Below, piece after piece: positions 4,901 through 63,700 of a DNA stretch of 64,000 nucleotides. Each line of letters opens with the position of its first letter. Position 1 is the stretch's first letter. Under the pieces are notes generated by a model, which saw only the letters and a list, made by a program, of their open reading frames with translations, ran no database searches and had not been told where the DNA came from. Made by a program: the position numbers and the translations under genes. This DNA comes from a plasmid, in the NCBI RefSeq assembly GCF_054482525.1, contig NZ_JBTHVG010000003.1, one strand, 5' to 3'.

Positions 4901-5067
4901 ATAGTTTCCCTCGTAAATTATCCGATGCGGTATTTTTAACAGAAATGCTTATCGCATAAGGGTACACCCTGACGCCATATTCAAAACGTGACGGCACACG
5001 ATGAATGACATAACCTATATGCGATAGATTAAATGCAATAACTTAAATGCGATAACGTGGTGGAAAA
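4901..5067. promoter_or_regulatory. res site and divergent tnpA/tnpR promoter region
   Basis: AT-rich 167-bp spacer between divergent tnpA and tnpR with repeated ATGCGATA-like motifs; position-based inference. Confidence 0.45.
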
Positions 5068-5703
5068 ATGTTCATCAGAGCTTATTTAAGGGCATCGACG
5101 GAAGATCAGTTCGCAGATCGGGCAAAAGAGATGCTGGAGCAGTTTGTTCAGGAGCGGGGACATAAAATAGCCAGTTACTACCGGGAGAACATCAGCGGTA
5201 CAAAACTTGACCGCCCGGAACTGGGGCGCTTACTGATGGACAGTCACCGCAATGATATTTTACTGGTCGAGCAGATAGACCGTCTGACCCGTCTGAGCAA
5301 CAGCGACTGGATGACTCTGAAAAAGCAAATCGAGCAACACGAGCTGCGGATTGTCAGCCTCGATGTACCCACCTCATGGCAGGCGCTGTCAGATAAAGAT
5401 CCTTCGCAGGCTGACCCAATCACCCGCGCCGTGATAACCGCCATCAATAATATGCTTATCGACCTGATGGCCGCGATGTCGCATAAGGACTGGCTGAGCC
5501 GCCGCCATCGGCAGAAGCAGGGAATTGAACGGGCACATACGCTGGGAAAATACCGGGGCAAACAGGCCGATCAGGAACGACATAAGAAAGTTCTGTATTA
5601 CCGACAGGTCAAGAAACTGAGCATAAGAGAAACTGCTGAAGCCACCGGTTACAGCACATCTCAGGTCTGCAGGATTCAGGCCCTGTTCAGGCCTGAAAAT
5701 TAA
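5068..5703 (+). CDS. tnpR: serine recombinase resolvase TnpR
   Basis: 211-aa ORF; resolvase-like N-terminus (RASTEDQ serine motif region) and C-terminal HTH. Confidence 0.85.
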   Translation: MFIRAYLRASTEDQFADRAKEMLEQFVQERGHKIASYYRENISGTKLDRPELGRLLMDSHRNDILLVEQIDRLTRLSNSDWMTLKKQIEQHELRIVSLDVPTSWQALSDKDPSQADPITRAVITAINNMLIDLMAAMSHKDWLSRRHRQKQGIERAHTLGKYRGKQADQERHKKVLYYRQVKKLSIRETAEATGYSTSQVCRIQALFRPEN

Positions 5704-5730
5704 GCACATTTTCTGAGGCTGGAAATCAAC

Positions 5731-6567
5731 TCATGCTGACAGCCTGAGCCTGTTGGCATGGTAAGCAATGTGCTCACCAATAAAGCTGGAAATGAAATAA
5801 TAGCTGTGGTCGTAACCAGTATGATATCGGAATGATGTGTTGATGTTCATCTCGTTGCACACTCTTTCAAGACTTTTAGTGCGTAACTGATCTTCATAAA
5901 AGGCGTCACTTAATCCCTGGTCAATAAAAATTTCTGGTAATTTCGCACCCTGTAAAATGAGACTGACGGGATCGTAGTGCTCCCACGTTTTTTTATTTTC
6001 ACCCAGGTACGCGGTGAATGCCTGTTGTCCCCATGGCACCTGAGAAGGTGACACTATTGGTGAAAATGCCGATACACTCACATATTCATCAGGATTTCGC
6101 AGCGACAGAACCAGCGCTCCCAGCCCCCCCATGGAGTGACCGGATATTGATTTCCTTGATGTTACAGGTAAATGCTCCATGACAACATCCGGAAGCTCAT
6201 GGAGAATATAGTCATACATCCTGTAATGCGTGTTCCACGGATGTTCCGTCGCGTTCAGATAAAATCCGGCACCCTGGCCCAGATCGTAGCTGTCAGCATC
6301 TGCGACATGCTCTCCACGGGGACTGGTATCAGGAACAACGACGATGATGTTGTTCCTGGCGGCATAATGCTGCATACCCGATTTGGTGATGAAATTCTGC
6401 TCCGTACAGGTCAGACCCGAGAGCCAGTACAGGACCGGCAGTTTTTCTGTTGCTGCTTTGGGGGGAAGATAAACACCGAAATTCATCTCACAATTAAGTG
6501 TTTGTGAATTATGGCGGTATACGTTTTGCCAGCCGCCAGCGCTGGCATGCTGCTCGATGAGTTCCAT
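5731..6567 (-). CDS. frmB: S-formylglutathione hydrolase (esterase D family)
   Basis: 278-aa ORF with esterase D/FrmB-like sequence including GHSMGG serine hydrolase motif. Confidence 0.85.
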   Translation of the reverse strand: MELIEQHASAGGWQNVYRHNSQTLNCEMNFGVYLPPKAATEKLPVLYWLSGLTCTEQNFITKSGMQHYAARNNIIVVVPDTSPRGEHVADADSYDLGQGAGFYLNATEHPWNTHYRMYDYILHELPDVVMEHLPVTSRKSISGHSMGGLGALVLSLRNPDEYVSVSAFSPIVSPSQVPWGQQAFTAYLGENKKTWEHYDPVSLILQGAKLPEIFIDQGLSDAFYEDQLRTKSLERVCNEMNINTSFRYHTGYDHSYYFISSFIGEHIAYHANRLRLSA

Positions 6568-6630
6568 TAGCCTCTCTCATGGTTATTTCCCCTGACAGGG
6601 AGTCAGGGGAAGTCTCTTTATAGCCGGACG

Positions 6631-7029
6631 TCAGATGAACGTATAAGCCGTGATTTTGTTACCCGCAGGGTCTCGCAGGTAGGCTGCATAGGCTCCAGGG
6701 AGATGGCTGCGCGGGCCAGGCTGACCTTCATCTTTCCCTCCGGCGGCAAGGCCCGCGGCGTGGAAAGCATCAACTTCTTCCGGACTTGCAGCTGCAAAGC
6801 CGACAGTAACGCCGTTGGCCGATGGCGCTTCACCGTTGCCCGGACGTGCAATAATAAAGGCTGGCTTTTCACGACCATAAAGTACCCAGCCATTGCCAAA
6901 CGGGCCGAGGTTATTGATGCCAAGCGTACCGAGGACAGCATCGTAAAAATCAGCGGATTTTTCAACATCGGATGCACCGATGAAGACGTGGGAAAAAACG
7001 TCATTACCAGAAATTACAGGTGTTGCCAT
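6631..7029 (-). CDS. VOC/glyoxalase-family protein
   Basis: 132-aa ORF with glyoxalase-like fold signature; sits between frmB and frmA. Confidence 0.65.
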   Translation of the reverse strand: MATPVISGNDVFSHVFIGASDVEKSADFYDAVLGTLGINNLGPFGNGWVLYGREKPAFIIARPGNGEAPSANGVTVGFAAASPEEVDAFHAAGLAAGGKDEGQPGPRSHLPGAYAAYLRDPAGNKITAYTFI

Positions 7030-7070
7030 GATCCATTTCCTTCAGTTGGTTTGACTCAGTTAAGACGCTA

Positions 7071-8210
<1,140 letters not shown>

Positions 8211-13760: not shown

Positions 13761-15230
13761 TCAGCTGACTTCGTCGTAAAACTGCCGCAAGCGCTGGGAG
13801 GCTGCAAATTCAATTCGTGACTTCAGCAGTTTGGCGACGGCCGCAAAGACATCAACGACCACGGAGTTCCCAAACTGTCTGTAAGCCTGTGTATTGGACA
13901 CAGGGATACGGAAAACACTTTCCCCGGGTTTATCGAAGCCCATTAGCCTGCTGCATTCACGTGGCGTTAGCATGCGTGGCCGACGGTCCATGTTGTATGT
14001 GTTATGGAAATCAGTTTCTCCCAGTTCATGAGACCAGCCCCGATCAATAAGAATTTCAGATCCGTCTTTCATATAGCGGCTTGAGAGGGTTCTGGTGACA
14101 CTATTAACATTGGAAGGATCTACTAGTCCAAAACCAAAACCATTGCCTTTTGCCGCATGTTTCTTTGCATAGTTGTATAAGTACTCCCAGAGTTTAGGGG
14201 AGAGGATGTATTTACTATCTACGCTCGGATCCAGTAAATCTGAGAGAGAAGGGCGCTTGTCCGGATAAAAGTCTTTAATGTCTCTCAGAGTAAAACCGTC
14301 TTTCAGACGTAGGTCGCGGCGAAAACCAATAAGGACGATACGTTCACGGTGCTGGGGTCGGAAATGACGGCCATCGATGACTTTAGGATCATCCGCGCCC
14401 GTGCTTTCGCTGTTTGCGACGTCGTAGCCAAGCTCATCGAGCGTTTTCATGATGATGTTAAAGGTATTACCCTTATCGTGACTCTTCAGATTTTTTACGT
14501 TTTCCAGAACAAAAATTGCAGGTTGTTTTGCCCGGATGATCCTGGCCACATCAAAGAAGAGCGTACCCTGAGTGTCGCACTCGAAACCGTGTTTGCGACC
14601 CATAGAGTTCTTTTTACTGACACCGGCGATGCTGAATGGCTGGCATGGAAATCCCGCAAGAAGAACATCATGATCCGGGATAGAGGCATCGATAAATTTG
14701 TATGCCTCGTCATCAGTAACCTCGGGCCGGTTGCTAAGAGTGATGTCACGGATGTCTGAATTGAAGCGGTGCTCGTTCTCATCGCAATACCAGTTCGCCC
14801 GGTAAGTACGGCTGGAATAAGTATTCCATTCGCTCGTGAAAAGACATTTACCACCGATGGCATCAAATCCGCTTCGCAGTCCACCTATCCCTGCAAACAG
14901 ATCGATAAAGCTAAAGTGCCTGTCCTCATAATCAGCAGGTCGTGAAGGTATTAAAGTCTGTAGATAGCGTCCATCTGCGATACTCAGCTCACAATGCTCA
15001 GGTATGCATGTAACCTGACGTTTAAGGGATGCACGGGACCAATTACTGCCATTTTCATCATTTAATACCTGAGCCAGATATTTCAGGTCATAAATGGTCG
15101 AAGCTGTTAACAAAGTTTTGTGGATCAGAGATGGTGTTTTATCCACATCATTCAGGTCTGTCTCAAGATCATGAGTGTAACGTTTCATCCAAACTCTCTC
15201 AGGAATAATATCTTTGAGATAGATTAACAC
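13761..15230 (-). CDS. DNA cytosine-5 methyltransferase, Dcm/M.EcoRII-like
   Basis: Motif I FAGIGG, motif IV PCQPFS, motif [12 protein letters not shown]; N-terminal extension as in Dcm; true start may be an internal Met. Confidence 0.85.
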
Positions 15231-15399
15231 GCTTAATTTGGATTATTTTTTGGTTCAGGTTCTAAATTTATTGTGATTATTCTGCCTTTAAGTTGCAAAA
15301 AGATTGGTTTTAAGCCCGCCCATGAAATAATGACTTGTTAAAATACTGCCTGTAAATAGGCTTGTGGATACATGTCTGTACTCAACAAATCAAGGTGAA

Positions 15400-15918
15400 A
15401 TGATGTTTTTTTTAACAAAGTTACTTTTGCCCATCATGATTGTTGTATTCCCAGTGGCGTCCTGGGGGAACTCAACAACTTTTGAGGCAAAGGTGGTTAA
15501 GATTGTTGACGGTGACACCATAACTGCGTTGGATGCTCAAAACACAACCATCAAAATACGGATGTATGGTATAGACGCTCCTGAATCTAAACAGGCTTTT
15601 GGCCAAAAAGCAAAACAGGCCTTAACCACAGCTATAGCAACTAAAATCGTTACCGTGATAGACCATGGTACGGATATCTATGGCCGTATGTTAGGTACCA
15701 TCTGGTTAGATGGATATGATATCAATGCCTCTATGGTGGACAGTGGATATGCGTGGGTTTATCGGTTCGAAGATAACGCCATTGTCCCTGGCTATATCAA
15801 ATATGAATCCGCAGCACAAAAGGAGGCAAAAGGGTTATGGGCAGACACCAACCCTGTCCCACCATGGCAGTGGAGACAGGCAAACGAAAAGCCCAGAAAG
15901 GTGAAAGAGAAGAAATAA
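15400..15918 (+). CDS. nuc: secreted thermonuclease (staphylococcal-nuclease fold)
   Basis: Start moved to ATG at 15400 after an AAGGTGA ribosome-binding site; signal peptide then SNase-like core (DGDT, GIDAPE motifs). Confidence 0.75.
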   Translation: MMFFLTKLLLPIMIVVFPVASWGNSTTFEAKVVKIVDGDTITALDAQNTTIKIRMYGIDAPESKQAFGQKAKQALTTAIATKIVTVIDHGTDIYGRMLGTIWLDGYDINASMVDSGYAWVYRFEDNAIVPGYIKYESAAQKEAKGLWADTNPVPPWQWRQANEKPRKVKEKK

Positions 15919-15920
15919 CC

Positions 15921-16817
15921 ATGATGAAAGAGCCTCATCCGTTACTTCAGTTGGTACTAAACGATTCCGGTCGTCTAACCATGCCTGTTTATTATAGAGA
16001 TCAACAGTATTGCCCGACTTGCCTTACAAAGGTGTTGAAGAGTGAGGATGGAAGTTTGGCGCACCTCGGGGAAATAAATCAAAATACATGTAGACCTTCT
16101 ATTTCAGTAGTTGTGACAAAAGCAATTATTGAAATGTTATGTGACGGGGAAAAAATATATGTAAATCCAATACGACACCGAGGCCGGGTGCTGGCACCCT
16201 CAGTAATTTTTTCTCCCGACACTCACACTTTCAAACCGTTTATAAATACAGACTATCAGCCTGTGGGAGCAAACTGGAAAAGTGAAAAGGGATATAAACT
16301 CGGTCTGTTTTATCTCAAAGATCGAGCCAACTCTATCAATAAAGAGGAATTTGATTTCATTGCCGTTATAGACCCTGAGGCAATGCAGAAAGAATTTATT
16401 TCGGCCTGGTCTGAGGTTGATGAAAAAAATCCATTGGAAACGCTGAAGCAGATCTTACGATCTAAAAACAACTCTTCTTTATGGGTAAAATGGCCTGGCA
16501 AAATTGAGCATGCGCAAAAAGGAAATTACAACGAAAATTACTGGTTCGATTATCAATCTGATAATCAGGAAGTGAACTGTACGGTCTCTGTTGTAGGTAT
16601 CGAAGGTAACAGTTCCGGTGAGACAATTTATAGATTGCAAACTTTGCTAAAGCGTAAGCTCAATGAATATCAACTGGTTCGGTCTTTAGGTACTATTATG
16701 CTTCTTGATAATACCGGGAATATGATTCCATCAAACCATCCTTATTTTGAAGTCATCTCAAAAGCATGTATAAATGGAGTGCGTGACTTTGTTCGTCAAA
16801 ACCCGTGGGTAGTCTGA
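15921..16817 (+). CDS. hypothetical protein, 298 aa, coupled to nuc
   Basis: Start at ATG 15921, 3 nt after the nuc stop; contains a CPTC motif; no family recognised. Confidence 0.5.
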   Translation: MMKEPHPLLQLVLNDSGRLTMPVYYRDQQYCPTCLTKVLKSEDGSLAHLGEINQNTCRPSISVVVTKAIIEMLCDGEKIYVNPIRHRGRVLAPSVIFSPDTHTFKPFINTDYQPVGANWKSEKGYKLGLFYLKDRANSINKEEFDFIAVIDPEAMQKEFISAWSEVDEKNPLETLKQILRSKNNSSLWVKWPGKIEHAQKGNYNENYWFDYQSDNQEVNCTVSVVGIEGNSSGETIYRLQTLLKRKLNEYQLVRSLGTIMLLDNTGNMIPSNHPYFEVISKACINGVRDFVRQNPWVV

Positions 16818-16864
16818 CGGTCAACTATAAAGCATAATATAATTAGTAATAACAAGGAACAGAC

Positions 16865-17272
16865 ATGAATGAAAACTCAGTAATCTTAATAAGTTTATTT
16901 TGGTTTTTTTTGGGATCGAGTGTTGTAGCTGGTTTTATGGATGCATCATTATATTGCTGGATTTTTGCAGCCATAAGCGCATTGTTTCTTCTTTCGGTGA
17001 TACAAACACCAAAGGAGTTAACGGTATCTATTAGTCATATGACAAGCAAAACGCTGATCTCAAAGACAGATGATGGATACACATTTAGCATTTCACCTTA
17101 CGGAGACGGGTACCGCTTATCAGTCTCGCCTGAAAATCGTCACAATGGTACCCAAAGCTTTGACGGCTGGTTCCCACGTTTTTTTTCCGAACCACAGTAT
17201 GCCAAATCATCTTTAACTAAATTTCTCGGTGAGTCCTTAGTATGGGAAGAAGATTCAAGTAATGCTCTATGA
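16865..17272 (+). CDS. small membrane protein
   Basis: 135-aa ORF with two N-terminal hydrophobic helices. Confidence 0.4.
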   Translation: MNENSVILISLFWFFLGSSVVAGFMDASLYCWIFAAISALFLLSVIQTPKELTVSISHMTSKTLISKTDDGYTFSISPYGDGYRLSVSPENRHNGTQSFDGWFPRFFSEPQYAKSSLTKFLGESLVWEEDSSNAL

Positions 17273-17317
17273 GATTACTTATTATAAATTTTTCTATTAA
17301 TCTCCATGGAGTGATAT

Positions 17318-17572
17318 ATGAATTTGGCCTATTTTTTATTTTTGTCTATAACTGTTATGCTTACGAGCTTTATTATTAAATCACTTGTCGTATTGGTAAA
17401 GTTCAAATTACTTCGTGATGAACGTCTCGAATATACCAGCAATAAAAATATTGATGAGATGTACGATTTAATGAATGCGAAGGAAGAAATCCTCATAAGG
17501 CATCATAAGCAGATGTTGGCATTGCATCTTTCACTATTAATATTCGTTCTATTTATTGCTTACATTTACTAA
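17318..17572 (+). CDS. small membrane protein
   Basis: 84-aa ORF with hydrophobic helices at both ends. Confidence 0.4.
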   Translation: MNLAYFLFLSITVMLTSFIIKSLVVLVKFKLLRDERLEYTSNKNIDEMYDLMNAKEEILIRHHKQMLALHLSLLIFVLFIAYIY

Positions 17573-17609
17573 AAATAATTTTATTCAACATTTCAACAAA
17601 GGGTTTTCA

Positions 17610-17897
17610 ATGGAAAGCTTCGAAACTGAACAAATGATTCAATATGCTTTCTACATAAATATCGTAATAACGACTGGTTTGGCATGGTTTTGCTTGCGGT
17701 CAGGATTGCATTACAATTTTTTCAGAAAAGCAGAGAGTGCCAGAACAAAAGGGCTGAGTAGTACCTCTACTGAACACGGTCCAGCAATAGTGAGACTAAA
17801 GAAGCTACAAGCATTAGTAGATTTTATTAGTAACTGTGCTTTTCTAATCCTTTCAATTGGCACAGCTTATATTTTGTATGTTTGGAGCCACAGTTAA
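17610..17897 (+). CDS. small membrane protein
   Basis: Start moved to internal ATG at 17610 after an AAAGGG ribosome-binding site; two hydrophobic helices. Confidence 0.35.
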   Translation: MESFETEQMIQYAFYINIVITTGLAWFCLRSGLHYNFFRKAESARTKGLSSTSTEHGPAIVRLKKLQALVDFISNCAFLILSIGTAYILYVWSHS

Positions 17898-17966
17898 CTC
17901 ATACGAGGTAACTTCGGCAGGTAACAACTTCTAATGCAGGACTTTAATAACTCTAAGGGATTCTAC

Positions 17967-18164
17967 ATGAAAAAAGACGATCTAATTACGCGTTGTAAAT
18001 TACTTAAAGGCGAACGCGATGAGTCTATCTTTACCATATTAATTGGGATAGTAGTAAAGCTGGGGCTGGTAGGCCTGGCATTCTATCTGTTGCTTGGTTC
18101 CACGATTGATTGGTCAAGCTGGAAAACTTATGCCGCCATGTTGATCTTGGGAGCATTTCTCTAA
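17967..18164 (+). CDS. small membrane protein
   Basis: Start moved to internal ATG at 17967 after an AAGGGA ribosome-binding site; hydrophobic C-terminal half. Confidence 0.35.
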   Translation: MKKDDLITRCKLLKGERDESIFTILIGIVVKLGLVGLAFYLLLGSTIDWSSWKTYAAMLILGAFL

Positions 18165-18500
18165 AATCTTGAACCTTTTTTCACTCATTACAAGCCATGA
18201 CCTAGTGCGTAGATCATACGATCTTTAAACCTTATGTCATTGATTTATAAGTACATATAACAAAGATTATGTTAAATACTGTATGTATGTACAGCATCAA
18301 CAGTTGCCCCCCTCATATTGAGGTAATTGCTACATTCATACCACTATTCTTCTTATAGTATCGACATCCTGAATTATTGCACCCTACTGCTTTGTCTTTA
18401 GCTGTTCCGAATTAAAATTCATTGCTCAATTTGGATCACATGACGATCAGCGTATTCCTTTGCTTTATCAAAGTTAAGTTTTTAAAACATAAGATATGTA

Positions 18501-18962
18501 ATGACAAATTCTCAATCTGATTTTCCTTTGAACGATCAAAATTTTCAGGCAGATTTGCTGAAAATCAAAAAGGTTTTCGCCGACCTTATAACGCAGGCAT
18601 CAGATGGTAAGATACCCATAAGGTCTTCTCATGTACACGGCTTACACCATTTCGAGGAGCTCTACATCCGGGCAAGAGCAGGCATGTGTTCGGTCCTGGG
18701 ATATCCGGTCATGGTTGTTTCAACTATCTCAGTTAAAGAGCCCGGCACAGGCATTTTTAGAGCGCTTCTTGCAGAATTGAAATGTATTGCAGATGAACAA
18801 AATTACATTTTGAAAATTGAAAATGTACTGCCTCCCCTATTCCGCAAATACCTTATTCAAGAAGGTTTTGTTTTCCCAGGTGAACCTTGGATGTGTGGTT
18901 CCGGCTATTGGTTTAAGAACCCACAAGTACTTCATGAAAATATTGAGTTATTATCTGTTTAA
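18501..18962 (+). CDS. hypothetical protein
   Basis: 153-aa ORF; no family recognised. Confidence 0.45.
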   Translation: MTNSQSDFPLNDQNFQADLLKIKKVFADLITQASDGKIPIRSSHVHGLHHFEELYIRARAGMCSVLGYPVMVVSTISVKEPGTGIFRALLAELKCIADEQNYILKIENVLPPLFRKYLIQEGFVFPGEPWMCGSGYWFKNPQVLHENIELLSV

Positions 18963-18991
18963 GTCGATCTAACAATTTCACTGGAGCTAAC

Positions 18992-19399
18992 ATGTCCCCG
19001 GAATTGGTATCAGACATTGCAAGAGTGGCGCATGAAAAGCTACTTTCAATTTTAACGGAGTGCGGCATAGAGAAGACGGCAGGCACTTGCCTTTTTGCAA
19101 GCTATCTTGTGTGTTATTTAGCAAAAACTAAAGGTCTAGATGCTGTTGTCCGTGGGGGTAACGGTGCAGATGATGGCGGTATATTTATAGAGTGTGGTGG
19201 CTTTGGCCATTATTGGTGTGAGTTGAATTTCGAAGAAGTGCAATATTATATTGACATCACTTCCGAACAGTTTGGGTTTCATCCATACATAGTGAAACTC
19301 GCCAACGATATAACAGGATGGCCTCGATATATTCCTGGTGATCAGGAAACGGTCGATAGTCATTTAGAACAATTATTACGCGACGGCTATACAGAATAG
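18992..19399 (+). CDS. hypothetical protein
   Basis: 135-aa ORF, contains a conserved-looking Cys/His patch (CGGFGHYWC); no family assigned. Confidence 0.45.
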   Translation: MSPELVSDIARVAHEKLLSILTECGIEKTAGTCLFASYLVCYLAKTKGLDAVVRGGNGADDGGIFIECGGFGHYWCELNFEEVQYYIDITSEQFGFHPYIVKLANDITGWPRYIPGDQETVDSHLEQLLRDGYTE

Positions 19400-19449
19400 G
19401 CTGCGTATACCCTATCGCAGCCTTTCAGGCTCTTAACCCTTGTGACCTG

Positions 19450-19977
19450 TTAACGGAACCACTCAGGATGACGCTGCCGATCAACTTTGATAACCTGCGA
19501 ATTAAATTCAACGACATCCGCTGGAGTAAGCATTAATTCATCAGGATTTACAATAAATGGTCTTAAAACCACTTCGCCACCGTCTTCTTTTGCACCGTAG
19601 ATATTAATAAGAAAGTGCAGTCGTTGATTTCCTTCAGCATTGCGTTGCCATTCTCTAAAAGTCAAAGTTTGTTTAATATAGTTTGTTAAAAGAAATGCGA
19701 ATTCAGATTCTTCCGTTTGTGAGATACCGATTTTGTTAGACATTTTTTTTAGTATCTTTCCGAGCATGGACACACAGGCATCTAGACTTAACGATGTTGA
19801 AATTTTGGTCGTATTAAAATCCTCCTGCGAAAGTGAAATCATCCATGTATTATCTTTATGATAGTCGGTAATATAAATAAAATGAGATGTAAAAGGCGTT
19901 GAGTGATTGAACTCTCCTAAGTTCCATCCATACTGACTCACTGTATTTGAGCTAAGTTCTTTGTCGGTAATGTTCAT
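19450..19977 (-). CDS. hypothetical protein
   Basis: 175-aa ORF convergent with the preceding gene. Confidence 0.45.
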   Translation of the reverse strand: MNITDKELSSNTVSQYGWNLGEFNHSTPFTSHFIYITDYHKDNTWMISLSQEDFNTTKISTSLSLDACVSMLGKILKKMSNKIGISQTEESEFAFLLTNYIKQTLTFREWQRNAEGNQRLHFLINIYGAKEDGGEVVLRPFIVNPDELMLTPADVVEFNSQVIKVDRQRHPEWFR

Positions 19978-20143
19978 AATTCATACCTTTCGATAAAGTC
20001 TGTAATGATAATTAGCTATCTCAAAGGACCAGAACAACTCTTGAAATAACCACACTCGAAGAATTTATCATATTGAACACCCCTACCTAATAACCTTGCC
20101 GACTTAATAAATCACAATAGCCCTCCCCTGACATTTTAAAATG

Positions 20144-20530
20144 CTACTTGAATTTTTGATAGCTTATGGTTGTTTTATGTTCTTTGTGATACGCATATGT
20201 CATCTTCTCTTTCCAGTACCAATCTTGTAGATCCTGCAAGTCTAGCCCATTTTTCTCACGTATGCTTTCGTGTAATTCGCTAAGCGCGAGTTTATCATTA
20301 GGTTTATAAATGGCTAATTTTTCTTCAAATAAATCCAGCCAACGTTTCCCCATCTTACGACGCAAAACAAACACCATCGTGATAAATGTAATGAAATGCA
20401 CAGCAATTAGTTCCAACTTATGCGATTGCTGACCAGATAAAATTACTATTGTAACAACAGGGATGGCCGTATATAAAGCAATCAAAGCGACCATAAGTTG
20501 GTATGGTTTTTCCCGTATTACCATGTTCAT
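20144..20530 (-). CDS. hypothetical membrane protein
   Basis: 128-aa ORF with two hydrophobic helices; last backbone gene before the resistance region. Confidence 0.4.
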   Translation of the reverse strand: MNMVIREKPYQLMVALIALYTAIPVVTIVILSGQQSHKLELIAVHFITFITMVFVLRRKMGKRWLDLFEEKLAIYKPNDKLALSELHESIREKNGLDLQDLQDWYWKEKMTYAYHKEHKTTISYQKFK

Positions 20531-20570
20531 GGGTAAACCAGAGGACGCTACTGCTTGCCAAAATCTTAAA

Positions 20571-20608
20571 GGGGAGCCCGCAGAATTCGGAAAAAATCGT
20601 ACGCTAAG
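20571..20608. repeat. 38-bp terminal inverted repeat of a Tn1721/Tn21-subgroup transposon
   Basis: GGGGAGCCCGCAGAATTCGGAAAAAATCGTACGCTAAG, matching the Tn1721 IR as I recall it; the tnpA stop lies within it. Confidence 0.7.
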
Positions 20609-22120
20609 GTTTTCCGGGCATCCGTAAGGGCCGAAACTTCCCGTCTTCCAGTCTGCGGCTCTGCCGCCAGACGTAATCGCCGGTTAGGTTGATGTGCTCC
20701 CAGCCCAGCGGCGACAGGAATTGCAGCAGCTCGCCGTCCACCGGCTTGCCGGCCTCGACCAACCCCTGGGTGGCGCGTTCCAGGTACACCGTGTTCCACA
20801 GCACGATAGCCGCCGTCACCAGGTTGAGGCCGCTGGCCCGGTAGCGCTGCTGCTCGAAGCTCCGATCCCTGATTTCCCCAAGGCGGTTGAAGAACACCGC
20901 CCTGGCCAGCGAGTTGCGCGCCTCACCTTTGTTCAGGCCGGCATGCACGCGGCGGCGCAGTTCAACACTTTGCAGCCAGTCCAGGATGAACAGCGTGCGC
21001 TCGATCCGGCCCAGCTCGCGCAGGGCCACGGCCAGTCCGTTCTGGCGCGGGTAGCTGCCGAGCTTGCGCAGCATCAGCGAGGCGGTGACGGTGCCCTGCT
21101 TGATCGAGCTGGCCAGGCGCAGGATGTCGTCCCAGTGGGCACGCACGTGCTTGATGTTCAGGGTGCCGCCGATCAGCGGGCGCAACGTCGGGTAGGCTTG
21201 CACGCCCTGCGGCACGTACAGCTTGGTTTCGCCGAGGTCGCGGATGCGCGGCGCGAAGCGGAAGCCTAGCAGGTGCATCAGGGCAAAGACGTGATCGGTG
21301 AAGCCGGCCGTGTCGGTGTAGTGCTCCTCGATCCGCAGGTCGGACTCGTGGTACAGCAGGCCGTCGAGCACATAGGTGGAATCGCGGACGCCGACATTCA
21401 CCACGCGGGTGCTGAACGGCGCGTACTGGTCGGAGATATGGGTATAGAACAGCCGTCCCGGCTCGCTACCGTACTTCGGGTTGACGTGCCCGGTGCTCTC
21501 GCCCCGGCCACCCGCGCGGAAGCGCTGGCCATCGGAGGATGAGGTCGTGCCGTCGCCCCAGTGGGCGGCAAAGGCGTGGCGATACTGGTGGTTGACCAGC
21601 TCGGCCAAGGCCGCCGAATAGGTTTCGTCGCGGATGTGCCAGGCTTGCAGCCAGGACAGCTTGGCGTAGGTCAGGCCGGGGCTCGACTCGGCCATCTTGG
21701 TCAGCCCGAGGTTGATCGCATCACCGAGGATTGCGGACAGCAGCAACGTCCTGTCTTTGGCCTCGGCCCCGTCCTTCAAGTGGGTGAAGTGGCGGCTGAA
21801 GCCCGTCCAGTCGTCCACGTCCATCAGCAGTTCGGTGATCTTGATGCGCGGCAGTAACTGGCTGGTTTGGTCGATCAGCGCCTGCGCCCGATCCGGCACC
21901 GCCGCATCCAGCGGGGTGATTTTCAGCCCTGACTCGGTGAGGATGGCATCGGGCAGCTCGTTGTCCTTGGCCAGGCGGGTGACGGTGGCCAACTGCTCGT
22001 CCAGCAGCTGCAAACGCTCTTCCAGGTACTGGTCGCTGTTCGGGTTGATCGCCAGGGGCAGGGCCTGCTCGCGCTTGAGTGCGGCGAACTTCTCGGCCGG
22101 CAGCAGGTAGTCGTCGAAGT
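20604..22120 (-). pseudogene. tnpA: Tn1721/Tn21-family transposase, 3' fragment truncated by IS26
   Basis: High-GC ORF encoding the C-terminal ~505 aa of a Tn3-family TnpA; reading frame runs into IS26 at 22121. Confidence 0.85.
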
Positions 22121-60407: not shown

Positions 60408-60920
60408 TTAATCTAATTCTTCTTGAGAATACCTCTCTATGGCTGAAGCAGTTGAAGATAATCTGCAACGTGGACAATAAGCATCATTTGTCACTGGCAC
60501 AATGTATGGGCGTTTACATTTTTCGCAGGCACCTAGTTCTTCAATTTCTTTCATAGAAGTAAGGATTTCTATTATTTTATTAACTTCCGGTGCGCATACA
60601 AAGTATCCCAGATTATGAAGGACACTCATTATTCGGTTGAAGTCAATTTGCCGAAAACTCGCTTCCGGATTTATTGGATCAAAACCAAAATAGTTAACTG
60701 CGACATCAATAACAGCAGAAAAAGCTCGGCGGTTATCTGTGCGTTTGCTCCAGCCCCGGATACCTTTTTTGAGTTTTGTTTTTGCACCAGGCTCAAAATC
60801 GATATTTTCAGCAACATGATTACCGTACAAAATTCGTATTGTATTTTTATTTGCCCCAAGCGACATAGTCCTTGCTGCTCGCAATAGAGCATTAGCTTTT
60901 GTTTGATCGACCTTTGCCAT
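60408..60920 (-). CDS. zinc-ribbon protein, candidate transfer activator (TrhY-like by position)
   Basis: 170-aa ORF with C-terminal CEKC...CPRC; placement upstream of trhF-H-G matches my recollection of the IncHI trhR-trhY-trhX-trhF-trhH-trhG operon. Confidence 0.4.
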   Translation of the reverse strand: MAKVDQTKANALLRAARTMSLGANKNTIRILYGNHVAENIDFEPGAKTKLKKGIRGWSKRTDNRRAFSAVIDVAVNYFGFDPINPEASFRQIDFNRIMSVLHNLGYFVCAPEVNKIIEILTSMKEIEELGACEKCKRPYIVPVTNDAYCPRCRLSSTASAIERYSQEELD

Positions 60921-60921
60921 A

Positions 60922-61722
60922 TTAATAATCCTTTAACATAACTTTATTTGTTAAAGTGTTGAACACATCCTGACGGTGACTGGTGAACATAGTGTCATAA
61001 CGTAATAGTTCCATCAAATCATCACTAACTTTTCCTAACCGGATGTCAGCAGACAATTCATAAGCCCAGGCAAAAACTTTCGTTTTAAGTGAAACACTCT
61101 CTTCAATATGCCCTTGTGAGAAAGCAATTGTACGTGGGAAAAGAACGACATCGTTAATTGTTTTTAACGATGAATAACCAATGTCTTTAATAGCATCAGC
61201 TGTAGTTGGTTTTAAACCAAAGAAAACACTTACAAACTCTGGTGCGAGCATTGAGATAAAGAACACCTGCATAAAGTAGTCATTCTGTATATCAACACAT
61301 TTAGAACGCAACTCATGAATCTTCTTGGGATTATAGATATCCACTGTACCATTCAGAAAAGTCACTTTTTCACCGGCATCGTAAATACCATAGTCAATAT
61401 CATTTGTATCATATTCACGAATTACATTGGAATCACCGTCCAAGACCGCAGAAAAAAACCTCTCCCATGTAATTTCCTTTCCGAGTGTACGCGGAACCAA
61501 AAAACTACCTGGACGTGTTTCCACTTCAAAAGCTAAATCAGCGGCTGTACTAAATCCTTTCCCAAATAGGCGACGCTGGAGAAGAGGAGTCCCAGTTTGA
61601 TATGCAGAAGATCCATGCACAGGCAATAACATTAAAAATGCACGGTAACTACGAATAAGCGAAATCTCAGTGCGGAAAAGTTTACCGAGTAAGCTACGAG
61701 TTAAATTATCAGATTCTGACAT
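60922..61722 (-). CDS. candidate transfer activator (TrhR-like by position)
   Basis: 266-aa ORF, first gene of the minus-strand operon, 1 nt before the downstream gene. Confidence 0.4.
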   Translation of the reverse strand: MSESDNLTRSLLGKLFRTEISLIRSYRAFLMLLPVHGSSAYQTGTPLLQRRLFGKGFSTAADLAFEVETRPGSFLVPRTLGKEITWERFFSAVLDGDSNVIREYDTNDIDYGIYDAGEKVTFLNGTVDIYNPKKIHELRSKCVDIQNDYFMQVFFISMLAPEFVSVFFGLKPTTADAIKDIGYSSLKTINDVVLFPRTIAFSQGHIEESVSLKTKVFAWAYELSADIRLGKVSDDLMELLRYDTMFTSHRQDVFNTLTNKVMLKDY

Positions 61723-62071
61723 GTGCTGATTGTCCTTGCGCCATTACAATTGTTCAAATCTTCAACATGGATTTTTTGTTAGGTGTTCGGTAGGGTGAAA
61801 AGTAACTTTTAGTATTTTCTTAAGGCTTGAATAAGCCTTAAATCTATCCCTTCAACCACACCGCTTACTTGTAACACTTTTTAACCAAACTGACCAGAAT
61901 TTTATCAAAATTTCTTCGCATGCTAACGAAATGTGAAGCGATTAAAAAAAAACCTAAATCCAGCCCCTCCCAACGTTGGATTAGAATAACGACGTCTTTC
62001 ACTGACCGTCATAAACTGACATTTTTACTTTTCATCAACCTCATGCTTACATAGGATCACTAAACAAAGAA

Positions 62072-62191
62072 AAGTGACCCTATGAATACCTCACATAGGG
62101 TCACTTATGTTTGAAAAGTGACCCTATGTAATGTCGTCATAGGGTCACTTTTTATAAAAGTGTCACTATGGACAAAGTTCCATAGGGTCAT
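62072..62191. promoter_or_regulatory. array of three palindromic operator-like sites
   Basis: AGTGACCCTATG-N9-CATAGGGTCACT at 62072-62105 and 62117-62150, plus a degenerate third copy at 62159-62191, in the divergent intergenic region. Confidence 0.55.
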
Positions 62192-62480
62192 TTTTTTTGG
62201 AAAAGTGGCACTAGATATATGTATAACTTTAATAGAGCAATGCACATTATCAAAAGCAATAATCCACAATGGTCATTCCCTCAAAAGTAACTTTAGAGGG
62301 TAGCGATGGAAGTGAGGCTAAACTCGCTGTTACTGTTTCTGAAGGCCCCTCCCGAATGGGGGAAACAGCGAGTGCATTACATCTGTTCAATTCCCTCATC
62401 AAAGAGCATTCAAAAATCTTCTGTTCGTGAAAAAAAACGGAAATTTCCTCCGGTATAGTAATTTCACATCAGGAGGCGTC

Positions 62481-62966
62481 ATGAGTAATTCGAATCTTAT
62501 AAGTTCTATAGAGCTAACACGTAAAAATTTACGTGCTCAGATTGAAGGTTTGCGTGTTGAGGCTGAAGATCTCATTACAAAATACTGGATCAAGTGGAAG
62601 GAACGAAACCACCAAGAGATTAACCTTACCCGACATAGCAAAGTTCCAAAGAGGGAGTATCTGGGTTCTTACGCACCAAAAGTTGAGCTAATTGGTAATG
62701 CCAGAAAAGTAACGATCACTTGGCATCAGTTCAGCCCTTATAAAACAAGAGCGCCTAGTCACATGTCAAAACGGGTGCAACCAATGAAAAGTGGAAAATA
62801 TTCTAAGAACTGTTTTGTAAACCATGCCAGCTGGGAATACGAAATGATTTCTGAAACGGAAGCATTGCTGGAGCCTTACAGAGAAATGCTTGAGCTCTAT
62901 CATTCAGCATATATCGAACTTGGACGAAAAATCCGTCAATACTCAAAAACTAAGGTGGCACAATGA
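62481..62966 (+). CDS. hypothetical protein, first gene of the divergent plus-strand operon
   Basis: Start taken at internal Met (MSNSNLISS); by position this could be an HtdA-like regulator, but that is a guess. Confidence 0.35.
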   Translation: MSNSNLISSIELTRKNLRAQIEGLRVEAEDLITKYWIKWKERNHQEINLTRHSKVPKREYLGSYAPKVELIGNARKVTITWHQFSPYKTRAPSHMSKRVQPMKSGKYSKNCFVNHASWEYEMISETEALLEPYREMLELYHSAYIELGRKIRQYSKTKVAQ

Positions 62967-63700
62967 CCGACGCAATTATCACGGACAATGAGCGTATTAA
63001 CATTGAACCAAAAGATGTAATGGTAAAAGGTTCAAATAAAAAGCAAGGCGTAAACGCTCAAACTTCTACTCAACGTAGACCAGAGCACCAGGGTATGGCC
63101 AAAGTTATTATTAACCCCGGCACCCCAGATTTTAACCGGTTTTTAACTGCCAGAAATGGAGCAGTCATCAGAGGTTTTGATGATGTGAGTATCGCTATTT
63201 CCTCTCTCTTTAAAACGGTTGATGCAGTTAAACATCCTGACCTTGTTCAGGCTATTCAGGATTGGTTCAACGAGCTGCATGAAGAAAACAATAAGATGAA
63301 AGAAAATCTTGTTGCTTATATTAAGTCAATTGAGTTCGACAAGAATGACTCATTCATGTCATCAACTCAGTTTGTACCTTTCAGTTTTGAACCAGTACAA
63401 CTCAACTTCAATAACCACAACACCATGAGGTTTTACAAGTACATCTTCGAGATGAACCAGCTCATGAACACAATGTATGAGTACAACTCATTGGGTTTAC
63501 TGGCTGTAAGCGACTATCCGGTTATGTCTCACAACATTATAAAGAGTATTAATTTATATGTTGAGAATGTGAAAAAGACTCTGAATGTTTCTCGCCGTAA
63601 GGATGGGCCATACAGTCCAGCAGAGTTCATCACCAAAGTAATGCAATATAAAAGTGTGCAGGCATACATTGCAGCCGAACTGTCAGGCAAACGTCGATAA
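62963..63700 (+). CDS. hypothetical protein
   Basis: 245-aa ORF overlapping the upstream stop by 4 nt. Confidence 0.4.
   Translation: MTDAIITDNERINIEPKDVMVKGSNKKQGVNAQTSTQRRPEHQGMAKVIINPGTPDFNRFLTARNGAVIRGFDDVSIAISSLFKTVDAVKHPDLVQAIQDWFNELHEENNKMKENLVAYIKSIEFDKNDSFMSSTQFVPFSFEPVQLNFNNHNTMRFYKYIFEMNQLMNTMYEYNSLGLLAVSDYPVMSHNIIKSINLYVENVKKTLNVSRRKDGPYSPAEFITKVMQYKSVQAYIAAELSGKRR

What the first reader, a model, noticed from the sequence alone, without database searches (positions are those of the whole stretch)
62072..62191. Three evenly spaced palindromic operator-like sites between divergent transfer-region operons
Each site has 12-bp arms AGTGACCCTATG / CATAGGGTCACT around a 9-10-bp spacer, flanked by A-runs and T-runs; centres are about 42-45 bp apart, roughly four helical turns. 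They sit in the ~700-bp AT-rich region between the minus-strand operon starting at 61722 and the plus-strand operon starting near 62481. This looks like a cooperative binding array for a dimeric regulator controlling one or both operons.
Basis: seen in the sequence. Interest (0 to 1): 0.5.

Follow-up and report, generated by a model that had tools for sequence, protein, structure and literature searches.

The report
Repeat array in IncHI2 transfer origin
The palindromes are real and belong to a conserved array of eight protein-binding half-sites in the origin-of-transfer region of a common IncHI2 resistance plasmid. They most likely dock the transfer-initiation helper protein MobI/TraH rather than acting as ordinary gene operators, so this is an ordinary kind of element that has not been dissected in detail.

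Summary
The window ends in the Tra1 region of an IncHI2 plasmid that is 100% identical to pSTM6-275. The repeats lie between trhR-trhY (minus strand) and the traH/mobI-relaxase operon (plus strand).

The array is larger than reported. It has eight alternating half-sites at 62050-62215. They are best read as four about 35-bp palindromes, CATAGGGTCACTT-N7-9-AAGTGACCCTATG, spaced 43-44 bp apart.

The 12-mer (at most 1 mismatch) occurs nowhere else on the 276-kb plasmid. This argues against a site shared by the TrhR/TrhY regulon.

Relatives whose MobI is only 32-86% identical keep the same architecture, with the same period, position and AAAAGT/ACTTTT inner core. Their outer arms are lineage-specific.

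The gene to the right is a Pfam MobI protein. In IncA/C, SXT, Rts1 and R27, oriT lies next to mobI.

Best explanation, at confidence 0.6: a phased binding array for a relaxosome accessory protein, probably MobI/TraH, within oriT, possibly with a side effect on the divergent promoters. Binding, the nic site and cis-function are untested.

A separate and more surprising side finding is a 13-bp palindrome, AAAAGTWACTTTT. It is dispersed about 19-50 times over the plasmid backbone and flanks the array.

The parts
62050..62084 (.). Array unit 1: CATAGGATCACT-N11-AGTGACCCTATG. This is an R->F palindrome, meaning a reverse-oriented then a forward-oriented half-site converging on an A/T-rich centre. 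The left arm has 1 mismatch.
   Evidence: The half-sites are invariant in IncHI1 and pNDM-CIT.
62094..62128 (.). Array unit 2: CATAGGGTCACT-N11-AGTGACCCTATG. Both arms are exact.
62138..62170 (.). Array unit 3: CATAGGGTCACT-N9-AGTGTCACTATG. The right arm is a variant that is itself conserved as AGTGGCACTATG in IncHI1.
62181..62215 (.). Array unit 4: CATAGGGTCATT-N11-AGTGGCACTAGA. The right arm is a conserved variant.
   Evidence: (families D4 and D1).
62210..62227 (.). Conserved non-repeat element ACTAGATATATGTATAAC directly after the last half-site. A GTAT(A/T)AA core follows the last unit in most lineages examined. It is a candidate nic region by inference only.
61798..61810 (.). Copy of the dispersed 13-bp palindrome AAAAGTAACTTTT, 76 bp upstream of the trhR ATG. 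It is a candidate operator of a plasmid-wide regulator.
   Evidence: (D9).
62283..62295 (.). Copy of the same palindrome with 1 mismatch (AAAAGTAACTTTA), about 55 bp right of the array and 197 bp upstream of the mobI ATG. The distance is 191-207 bp in seven lineages and about 224 bp in the Klebsiella loci.
61869..61887 (.). Isolated half-site-like element CTTGTAACACTTTTTAACC in the left conserved block, just downstream of the promoter-like site for trhR.
   Evidence: (I13, I15).
61899..61926 (-). Promoter-like site for the R operon (trhR-trhY): TTAGCA-16-TAAAAT with an extended-10 TG, inside a block conserved between IncHI1 and IncHI2.
   Evidence: This is a consensus match only.
62481..62966 (+). 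mobI-family gene, the homologue of R27 traH. It is the first gene of the H operon (mobI, orf245, MOBH relaxase, T4CP, ..., DUF4400/traJ) and encodes the most likely binder of the array.
   Evidence: Pfam PF19456, E 4.8e-22. Annotation. pI 9.7.
62963..63700 (+). The 245-aa ORF conserved downstream of mobI in all lineages. Its function is unknown and it is an alternative candidate binder.
60922..61722 (-). trhR (266 aa), a co-activator of the tra operons.
   Evidence: (RefSeq names the homologue trhR).
60408..60920 (-). trhY (170 aa), a co-activator with an invariant Cys4 motif.

Best explanation
The repeats form a phased array of four about 35-bp palindromic binding sites (eight half-sites, period 43-44 bp, roughly four helical turns). 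They lie in the oriT-containing intergenic region of the IncHI2 Tra1 transfer region.

The most likely mechanism is as follows. Dimers of a relaxosome accessory protein occupy the sites cooperatively on roughly one face of the A-tract-rich DNA. The best candidate is the basic MobI-family protein TraH, encoded immediately to the right. The alternative is the conserved 245-aa ORF behind it. The bound protein bends or wraps about 170 bp of DNA. Through MobI's interaction with the relaxase C-terminal domain, it recruits the MOBH relaxase TraI to a nearby nic site. The lineage-specific outer arms would give each plasmid lineage its own oriT specificity. Occupancy may also modulate the divergent trhR and mobI promoters.

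Shown here: the array exists, is unique on the plasmid, has a conserved architecture with lineage-specific arms, and sits next to a mobI gene and a MOBH relaxase operon.

Taken from the literature: oriT lies next to mobI in R27, SXT, IncA/C and Rts1. MobI self-associates and binds the relaxase C-terminal domain in IncC.

Inferred and untested: that MobI/TraH binds these sites, the position of nic, and that the array is required in cis.
For: - The window is an IncHI2 plasmid. The array lies between trhR and a mobI-MOBH relaxase-T4CP operon.
- The 62481 gene matches Pfam MobI with E 4.8e-22, and its product has pI 9.7.
- Literature on MobI and oriT: MobI-like genes lie directly next to oriT in SXT, R27 and Rts1 (PMC10838148). 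The IncA/C oriT is an AT-rich, repeat-rich region of about 150 bp immediately upstream of mobI (PMC5587640). MobI self-associates, binds the relaxase C-terminal domain and sets oriT selectivity, and R27 TraH is named as the MobI-like factor of MOBH11 (bioRxiv 10.1101/2025.04.21.649884).
- The half-site (at most 1 mismatch) occurs only in the array on the whole 276-kb plasmid.
- In IncHI1 and pNDM-CIT the array is the best-conserved block of the intergenic region. Most of the half-site positions are invariant and the linkers vary.
- More distant relatives keep 3-6 palindromic units 200-450 bp upstream of mobI, with different outer arms that have changed in concert. Units are 43-46 bp apart in most lineages. 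In the Klebsiella, L019 and L020 loci some intervals are about 56 bp, and L019 shows only two clear units. MobI identity is 86% in L015, 54% in L016/L017, 42% in L018, 38% in L019, about 38-40% in the Klebsiella loci L011/L013 and 32% in L020.
- A Vibrio plasmid with a 31%-identical MobI and no trhR/trhY neighbours still has eight repeated sites upstream of mobI.
- A natural IncHI2 variant has lost exactly two units, 89 bp. This parallels the tolerated copy-number variation of direct repeats in the IncA/C oriT.
Against: - No binding data exist for any MobI protein. The literature says it is 'thought to' bind oriT.
- The AlphaFold model of MobI (pLDDT 89) has no recognisable DNA-binding fold and no PDB match.
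- Papers that used oriTfinder place the IncHI2 'oriT' in a 252-bp stretch. That stretch maps to window 61707-61958, the left conserved block, which ends about 90 bp before the array (PMC8252965; PMC13055346). I read this as the limit of a BLAST match to the R27 entry, but I could not verify it. nic may therefore lie outside the array.
- MobI, orf245, TrhR and TrhY all diverge at the same rate across lineages. Co-variation therefore does not single out MobI as the binder.
- The primary R27 and R478 papers (Lawley 2002; Gilmour 2004) could not be read.
Confidence: 0.6

Rival explanations
1. The array is a purely transcriptional element. It would be an operator or upstream activating array for a regulator such as TrhR/TrhY, HtdA or another plasmid regulator that controls the divergent R (trhR-trhY) and/or H (mobI-relaxase) operons. 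It would have no role in DNA processing.
For: - The array lies between divergent operons.
- The sites are palindromic and phased.
- The H operon is known to be activated by TrhR/TrhY.
- The inner core AAAAGT/ACTTTT of every half-site is shared with a plasmid-wide palindrome that looks like a global operator.
- An isolated half-site-like element lies just downstream of the promoter-like site for trhR.
Against: - The full half-site is absent from the other TrhR/TrhY-dependent promoter regions (F, AC, Z) and from the rest of the plasmid.
- The array overlaps no promoter-like hexamers. It lies more than 260 bp from the mobI ATG and more than 320 bp from the trhR ATG.
- The R operon is reported not to be under HtdA control.
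- The outer arms are lineage-specific. This is what is expected of oriT specificity determinants.
Confidence: 0.15
2. The palindromes act as hairpins in single-stranded DNA. They could be recognition or termination structures for the relaxase on the transferred strand, or a priming signal in the recipient. They would not be duplex binding sites.
For: Both strands of 62040-62235 fold far better than shuffled sequence as ssDNA: -40 and -37.6 kcal/mol, z = -8.7 and -7.7. Many oriTs carry an inverted repeat next to nic.
Against: - The units are repeated 3-6 times with helical phasing. This is a property of duplex-bound arrays, not of a nic-proximal hairpin.
- The variant arms in units 3 and 4 (AGTGGCACTA) are conserved as variants in IncHI1, IncHI2 and Photorhabdus even though they weaken pairing.
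- Pairing is ambiguous between the two possible registers, so no single hairpin is favoured. The minimum-free-energy structure has an ensemble frequency of about 0.0002.
Confidence: 0.1
3. The array is a partition centromere or a replication-iteron-like array that happens to lie here.
For: Arrays of phased short repeats are typical of type Ib and type II centromeres and of iterons (general knowledge).
Against: - The par genes (ParA/ParB, ParM) and the rep genes lie elsewhere on the plasmid, at record positions 14975-22022, 1-876 and 261304-262392.
- The array is always linked to mobI and the relaxase in every lineage.
Confidence: 0.03
4. The repeats are terminal inverted repeats of a small mobile element (a MITE or IS remnant).
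For: None beyond the presence of inverted repeats.
Against: - The array is single-copy on the plasmid.
- It sits at the same position between trhR and mobI in plasmid lineages whose proteins are only 30-40% identical.
- There is no transposase and there are no target-site duplications.
- The arrangement is tandem, not a pair of ends.
Confidence: 0.01

Closest known systems
oriT region of the IncHI1 plasmid R27 (Tra1 intergenic region between trhR and traH; Lawley et al. 2002, J Bacteriol 184:2173)
   Same: It is the homologous locus, with the same flanking genes. In IncHI1-type plasmids the eight half-sites are nearly identical and the array is about 80% identical overall. The R27 intergenic region is reported to be mobilisable. 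I rely here on my memory of the abstract. PMC10838148 states that oriT lies directly next to the MobI-like gene of R27.
   Different: This is the IncHI2 version, and the linkers and flanks differ. I could not read the primary paper. I therefore do not know whether the repeats themselves were described or whether the cloned fragment included them. Papers that used oriTfinder mark only the left 252 bp as oriT in IncHI2 plasmids.
oriT of IncA/C (IncC) plasmids and SXT/R391 elements, upstream of mobI (Hegyi 2017, PMC5587640; Ceccarelli 2008)
   Same: It is an AT-rich, repeat-rich cis site next to a Pfam MobI gene and is used by a MOBH1 relaxase. Natural repeat copy-number variants are tolerated. 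MobI gives oriT selectivity.
   Different: The sequences are unrelated. The IncA/C oriT is about 150 bp, abuts and overlaps the mobI promoters, and uses 14-bp direct repeats plus short inverted repeats. Here there are four about 35-bp palindromes at a 44-bp period, 265-430 bp from mobI. The relaxase clade is MOBH11, whose C-terminal domain differs.
Accessory-protein site arrays in other oriTs, such as TraM sbmA-C and the TraY sites of F, TrwA sbaA/B of R388 and TraK wrapping of RP4 oriT (textbook knowledge)
   Same: These have multiple phased, partly palindromic sites next to the gene of the binding protein. The sites serve relaxosome assembly and often also autoregulate the adjacent promoter.
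   Different: The proteins are unrelated. MobI has no ribbon-helix-helix fold, TraM fold or any other recognisable DNA-binding fold. Binding has not been shown here.
Activator boxes of FlhDC-like master regulators of MOBH12 elements (AcaCD, SetCD)
   Same: These are heteromeric activators encoded near oriT and mobI that bind long bipartite inverted repeats. TrhR/TrhY play the analogous activator role in IncHI.
   Different: Such boxes occur at every regulated tra promoter, whereas this half-site occurs only here. TrhY gave no Pfam, PDB or fold match to FlhC.

Membership tests
oriT of MobI-dependent MOBH1 conjugative elements | Lies upstream of and adjacent to a MobI-family gene (Pfam PF19456). 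| tested here: met
   The 62481 gene matches PF19456 with E 4.8e-22. The array ends 265 bp upstream of its ATG.
oriT of MobI-dependent MOBH1 conjugative elements | Linked to a MOBH (TraI_2) relaxase, a T4CP and a DUF4400/TraJ gene. | tested here: met
   The annotation of the identical plasmid lists a MobH relaxase, TraD and a DUF4400 protein. Relatives carry PF07514.
oriT of MobI-dependent MOBH1 conjugative elements | An AT-rich region with multiple inverted or direct repeats, single-copy on the replicon. | tested here: met
   G+C is 36% against 48% for the window. There are eight half-sites. The half-site is unique on the 276-kb plasmid.
oriT of MobI-dependent MOBH1 conjugative elements | Acts in cis: the cloned fragment is mobilised by the cognate helper. 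| not testable with these tools
   This is reported for the homologous R27 intergenic region (Lawley 2002, cited), but I could not read that paper. It is unknown whether the array is needed.
oriT of MobI-dependent MOBH1 conjugative elements | Contains the nic site cleaved by the relaxase. | not testable with these tools
   To my knowledge no nic site is defined for MOBH1 elements. The candidate is a conserved GTAT(A/T)AA after the last unit. Coordinates reported from oriTfinder point instead to 61707-61958.
oriT of MobI-dependent MOBH1 conjugative elements | Repeats are bound by MobI or another relaxosome accessory protein. | not testable with these tools
   MobI is basic, with pI 9.7, and self-associates in IncC. 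It has no known DNA-binding fold.
Transcriptional operator array of a tra regulator | Sites overlap or abut the -35/-10 hexamers of the regulated promoters. | tested here: not met
   Promoter-like sites lie at 61926-61899 and 62253-62226, and none is inside 62047-62215. This scan matches a consensus only.
Transcriptional operator array of a tra regulator | The same motif is present at other promoters of the regulon (F, AC and Z for TrhR/TrhY). | tested here: not met
   There is no other copy with at most 1 mismatch on the plasmid. The 2-mismatch hits are at the level expected by chance.
Transcriptional operator array of a tra regulator | Bound by the regulator, and its deletion changes promoter activity. 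| not testable with these tools
   This needs EMSA and reporter fusions.
MITE / IS terminal repeats | Multiple dispersed copies, target-site duplications and variable presence at the locus. | tested here: not met
   The array is single-copy. It is fixed between trhR and mobI in 9 lineages.
Partition centromere / iterons | Adjacent to the cognate par or rep genes. | tested here: not met
   The par and rep genes lie elsewhere on the plasmid.
Known RNA families | A match to an Rfam model at its gathering score. | tested here: not met
   There are only hairpin-type matches far below the gathering scores.

The most novel reading that the evidence does not exclude
The array units may be composite sites. 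The lineage-specific outer arms (CATAGGGTC in IncHI1/IncHI2, CATAGTGTT in L016, CATTAGTA in Klebsiella and so on) would be read by the fast-evolving MobI/TraH. The invariant inner AAAAGT/ACTTTT core would be read by the same, still unidentified, protein that binds the 13-bp palindrome AAAAGTWACTTTT. That palindrome is dispersed about 19-50 times over the IncHI backbone and flanks the array at fixed distances. If so, initiation of transfer at oriT would be wired directly into a plasmid-wide regulon, possibly the TrhR/TrhY-HtdA circuit, whose loss derepresses most R27 genes.
Probability: 0.15. Interest if true: 0.6.

Novelty: new member of a known kind. Interest (0 to 1): 0.3.

Why it matters
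IncHI2 plasmids are major carriers of mcr-1, mcr-9, ESBL and metal-resistance genes. More than 950 PLSDB records carry this exact region.

Their oriT is poorly defined. No nic site, minimal oriT or accessory-protein site has been mapped, and papers that used oriTfinder place the IncHI2 'oriT' in a 252-bp block that excludes this array.

The four-unit array, its lineage-specific arms and the adjacent conserved GTAT(A/T)AA element give concrete, testable targets for three purposes:
- defining oriT specificity in MOBH11 plasmids;
- predicting which plasmid fragments or hitchhiking elements can be mobilised by IncHI helpers, for example the IS1-flanked array-mobI cassette and the Klebsiella virulence-plasmid remnants;
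- testing whether MobI proteins bind DNA at all.

In kind, however, it is an ordinary oriT feature.

Tried and rejected
- Tandem Repeats Finder found nothing. The units are too divergent in their linkers.
- NCBIfam gave no hit for MobI, TrhR or TrhY. Pfam gave nothing for TrhR or TrhY. PHROGs gave only families of unknown function.
- The MobI AlphaFold model (pLDDT 89) gave no significant PDB fold match. The best matches were prefoldin and V-ATPase stalk coiled coils at E > 0.1. A profile search against PDB sequences gave nothing.
- I tested whether TrhY is FlhC-like, which would have favoured an AcaCD/SetCD-type activator box. The model had low confidence (pLDDT 66) and gave no fold hit. There was no PDB sequence hit either. 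The result is inconclusive, so I dropped the idea.
- Rfam gave only matches far below the gathering scores, of the kind a hairpin produces by chance.
- I compared the divergence of MobI, orf245, TrhR and TrhY with the divergence of the repeat arms, hoping to identify the binder. All four proteins diverge in parallel, so the test does not discriminate.
- I looked for k-mers conserved across distant lineages in order to locate nic. Only the dispersed palindrome is conserved at the level of 7-8-mers.
- The primary papers on R27 Tra1/oriT and on the R27 sequence are not held in the library. A full-text search for the motif sequences found nothing relevant.
- RefSeq and PLSDB annotate nothing over the array.
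- I rejected the mobile-element, centromere and RNA-gene readings. The reasons are given under the rival explanations and the membership test.

Full report
**Observation**

AGTGACCCTATG occurs exactly at 62073 and 62117. Its reverse complement occurs exactly at 62094 and 62138. Degenerate copies lie at 62050 (1 mismatch), 62159 (2 mismatches) and 62181 (1 mismatch). A further variant, AGTGGCACTAGA, lies at 62204.

The third is imperfect.

With the two extra half-sites the array spans 62047-62215 and consists of eight half-sites of alternating orientation, about 22 bp apart. The intergenic region is 37.9% G+C and the array 36.1%, against 48% for the window.

On the complete plasmid (276 kb, reassembled from the window and loci L006-L010) no other copy with at most 1 mismatch exists. 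The cluster is therefore far beyond chance.

**Context**

Window positions 61700-62500 are 100% identical to hundreds of IncHI2 plasmids, such as pSTM6-275 (CP019647). The annotation of that record and the ORFs give the following layout:
- On the minus strand: a 266-aa protein (named trhR in RefSeq and GenBank records), a 170-aa protein (trhY), a thioredoxin/TraF-like protein, TrhH and a TraG-N protein.
- On the plus strand: mobI, a 245-aa ORF, a MobH relaxase, the TraD coupling protein and a DUF4400 protein.

The 62481 gene matches Pfam MobI (PF19456, E 4.8e-22). In R27 the corresponding genes are trhR (R0123, R operon) and traH (R0122, 'relaxosome protein', H operon) (PMC7366339).

TrhR and TrhY together activate the F, H, AC and Z operons.

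**Anatomy from comparison**

Closest relatives. I aligned the intergenic region with IncHI1-type plasmids, pNDM-CIT and p1079. The repeat block is the best-conserved part. Most of the half-site positions are invariant. The A/T-rich stretches between a reverse-oriented (R) and the next forward-oriented (F) half-site keep their T-run/A-run character.

Distant relatives. These settle the register of the units:
- Two metagenomic contigs (L016/L017, MobI 54% identical): CATAGTGTYACTTTT and AAAAGTRACACTATG, with a period of 43-45 bp.
- Contig L018 (42%): five to six copies of TGTTTAACTTTT-N5-AAAAGTTAAACA, every 44-45 bp.
- Contigs L019 (38%) and L020 (32%), and Klebsiella IncHI1B-type plasmids (about 38-40%): CATCTCAAACTTTT..AAAAGTTTGAGATG and CATTRGTAYCTTTT..AAAAGRTACYAATG, with the A/T-rich centre only 1-7 nt long.

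The conserved unit is therefore the palindrome that converges on the A/T-rich centre. It has a lineage-specific arm, then ACTTTT, a few nucleotides, AAAAGT, and the complementary arm.

Read this way, the IncHI2 array is four complete units with no orphan half-sites: 62050-84, 62094-128, 62138-70 and 62181-215. Their centres are 44, 43 and 44 bp apart.

The arms have changed in concert on both sides and in all copies in each lineage. The period, the position (200-450 bp upstream of mobI) and the AAAAGT/ACTTTT core are kept.

Variation within IncHI2. The 98.8%-identity sublineage differs inside the array at a single linker base. One natural plasmid, pRHB16-C07_2, has lost exactly two units (89 bp).

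**What it most likely is**

MobI-family genes mark oriT. The IncA/C oriT is an AT-rich, repeat-rich region of about 150 bp immediately upstream of mobI, and copy-number variants of its direct repeat are functionally equivalent (PMC5587640). [quoted passage not shown]

In IncC, MobI self-associates and binds the C-terminal domain of the relaxase. It determines which oriT is processed. R27 TraH is named as the equivalent factor for MOBH11 relaxases (bioRxiv 10.1101/2025.04.21.649884).

A Vibrio plasmid with a 31%-identical MobI and no trhR/trhY neighbours still has eight repeated 18-nt sites right upstream of mobI.

These points, together with the array's uniqueness on the plasmid, make the best explanation a phased binding array for a relaxosome accessory protein within oriT. 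MobI/TraH (pI 9.7) is the prime candidate. The model is that dimers on four in-phase palindromes bend about 170 bp of A-tract-rich DNA and present the relaxase to a nearby nic.

A short element directly after the last unit is a candidate nic region: ACTAGATATATGTATAAC (62210-62227). Its core, GTAT(A/T)AA, follows the last unit in most of the lineages examined. This is inference only.

**Caveats**

- No MobI protein has been shown to bind DNA.
- The MobI model (pLDDT 89) consists of two long helices and a small sheet. It has no PDB neighbour.
- I could not read Lawley 2002.
- Two papers that ran oriTfinder on IncHI2 plasmids report a 252-bp 'oriT'. By its distance from the relaxase gene, this maps to window 61707-61958. 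That is the left conserved block next to trhR, and it ends about 90 bp before the array. Its right end coincides with the point where IncHI1/IncHI2 similarity drops. I therefore read it as the limit of a BLAST match to the R27 entry and not as an experimental limit. It does mean the position of nic is open.
- MobI, orf245, TrhR and TrhY diverge in parallel. Co-variation does not identify the binder.

**Rivals**

Pure transcriptional operator or upstream activating array (0.15). The location and symmetry fit. However, the half-site is absent from the other TrhR/TrhY-dependent promoters, and the array overlaps no promoter-like site.

ssDNA hairpins (0.1). Both strands fold with z about -8. Against this, helical phasing, multiple copies, conserved arm variants that weaken pairing and the ambiguous register all favour duplex recognition.

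Centromere or iterons (0.03) and mobile-element ends (0.01). Gene linkage and locus conservation reject both. Rfam gives only hairpin noise.

**Side finding**

The 13-bp palindrome AAAAGTWACTTTT occurs 19 times exactly on the plasmid, against 0.07 expected under a third-order Markov model. The 11-mer AAAGTNACTTT occurs 50 times against 0.8 expected. By my manual comparison with the annotation tables, at least 10 of the 19 exact copies are intergenic.

Two copies flank the array: one 76 bp upstream of the trhR ATG and one 197 bp upstream of the mobI ATG. In seven of the nine lineages examined a copy lies 191-207 bp upstream of mobI, and in the two Klebsiella loci it lies at about 224 bp. This includes lineages with 32% MobI identity. 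The palindrome is the only 7-8-mer of the intergenic region conserved across all distant lineages.

It shares AAAAGT with the inner core of every array half-site. No paper in the searchable library contains it. It looks like the operator of a plasmid-wide regulator. It is a better candidate than the array for control of the two divergent operons.

**Novelty and verdict**

The locus is the oriT/divergent-promoter region of a very common, well-known plasmid family, and the kind of element is ordinary. The following were not found described in any source I could search:
- the four-unit register of the array;
- its conservation with lineage-specific arms across MOBH11 relatives;
- the adjacent conserved element;
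- the natural two-unit deletion.

The array is also unannotated in RefSeq and PLSDB.

I rate the finding a new member of a known kind, with interest 0.3.

Noticed in passing
window 61798-61810 and 62283-62295; also 48832, 49733, 58738 and 61357; the rest of the plasmid via L006-L010: The 13-bp palindrome AAAAGTWACTTTT is dispersed over the IncHI2 backbone. There are 19 exact copies against 0.07 expected, and 50 copies of AAAGTNACTTT against 0.8 expected. At least 10 of the 19 exact copies are intergenic. In seven of the nine lineages examined a copy lies 191-207 bp upstream of mobI (about 224 bp in the two Klebsiella loci), and in the IncHI1, IncHI2 and pNDM-CIT lineages a copy lies 76 bp upstream of trhR. 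It is a candidate operator of a plasmid-wide regulator. It appears in no paper of the searchable library.
   Followed up: partly
L022 (CP057760 pRHB16-C07_2), aligned to window 62067-62155: A natural IncHI2 plasmid lacks exactly two of the four array units, an 89-bp deletion between repeats. It is still typed 'conjugative' in silico. It is a ready-made test of how many units are needed.
   Followed up: partly
L014 (NZ_CP010146, 112-kb E. coli plasmid) 3149-7404; also L004 (p1079-IncFIB-N): An IS1-flanked cassette, frameshifted trhR - array - mobI - orf, without a relaxase gene sits in non-IncHI E. coli plasmids of about 100-130 kb. It could make them mobilisable by an IncHI1 helper, in the way oriT-mobI islands are mobilised by IncC.
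   Followed up: no
L011 (pQDE2-C) and L013 (pCT77-Vir), about 2580-2760: Klebsiella IncFIB/IncHI1B plasmids typed 'non-mobilizable' (L013, pCT77-Vir, is named a virulence plasmid) keep a trhR/trhY-like - array - mobI - orf remnant between IS5 copies. The two plasmids have different arm sequences (CATTGGTAYC against CATTAGTAC) although their MobI proteins are 93% identical.
   Followed up: partly
L012 (Vibrio parahaemolyticus pVPS92-VEB) 2455-2944: Eight copies of an 18-nt direct repeat, AAAGTCGGCACCGAACTA, lie immediately upstream of a 31%-identical mobI, with spacings of 55, 88, 55, 87, 55, 75 and 57 nt. There are no trhR/trhY neighbours.
   Followed up: no
window 61707-61958: Published oriTfinder results for IncHI2 plasmids (p1575-1 and pGS32-1) place 'oriT' in a 252-bp stretch. 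By its distance from the relaxase gene, this maps to the block next to trhR and excludes the repeat array. It is probably the limit of a BLAST match to the R27 entry.
   Followed up: partly
window 61869-61887: An isolated half-site-like element, TTGTAACACTTTTTAACC, is conserved in IncHI1, IncHI2, Photorhabdus, L016 and L019. It lies just downstream of the promoter-like site for trhR (61926-61899, minus strand), which is an operator-like position.
   Followed up: partly
window 60408-60920 (TrhY): TrhY has four invariant cysteines across seven lineages (C132, C135, C149, C152, in a CxxC...CxxC pattern), suggesting a zinc ribbon. It has no Pfam, NCBIfam or PDB match, and the AlphaFold model has low confidence.
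   Followed up: partly
window 62481-62966 (MobI/TraH): The MobI family is small: 61 representatives at E<=1e-3 among 1.84 billion cluster representatives. The confident AlphaFold model, two 45-residue helices plus a three-stranded sheet, has no structural neighbour in the PDB.
   Followed up: partly
window 62322-62373: A perfect 10-bp inverted repeat, ACTCGCTGTT/AACAGCGAGT, with a 32-nt G+C-rich loop lies between the array and mobI. It is specific to IncHI2 and is not conserved in IncHI1.
   Followed up: no
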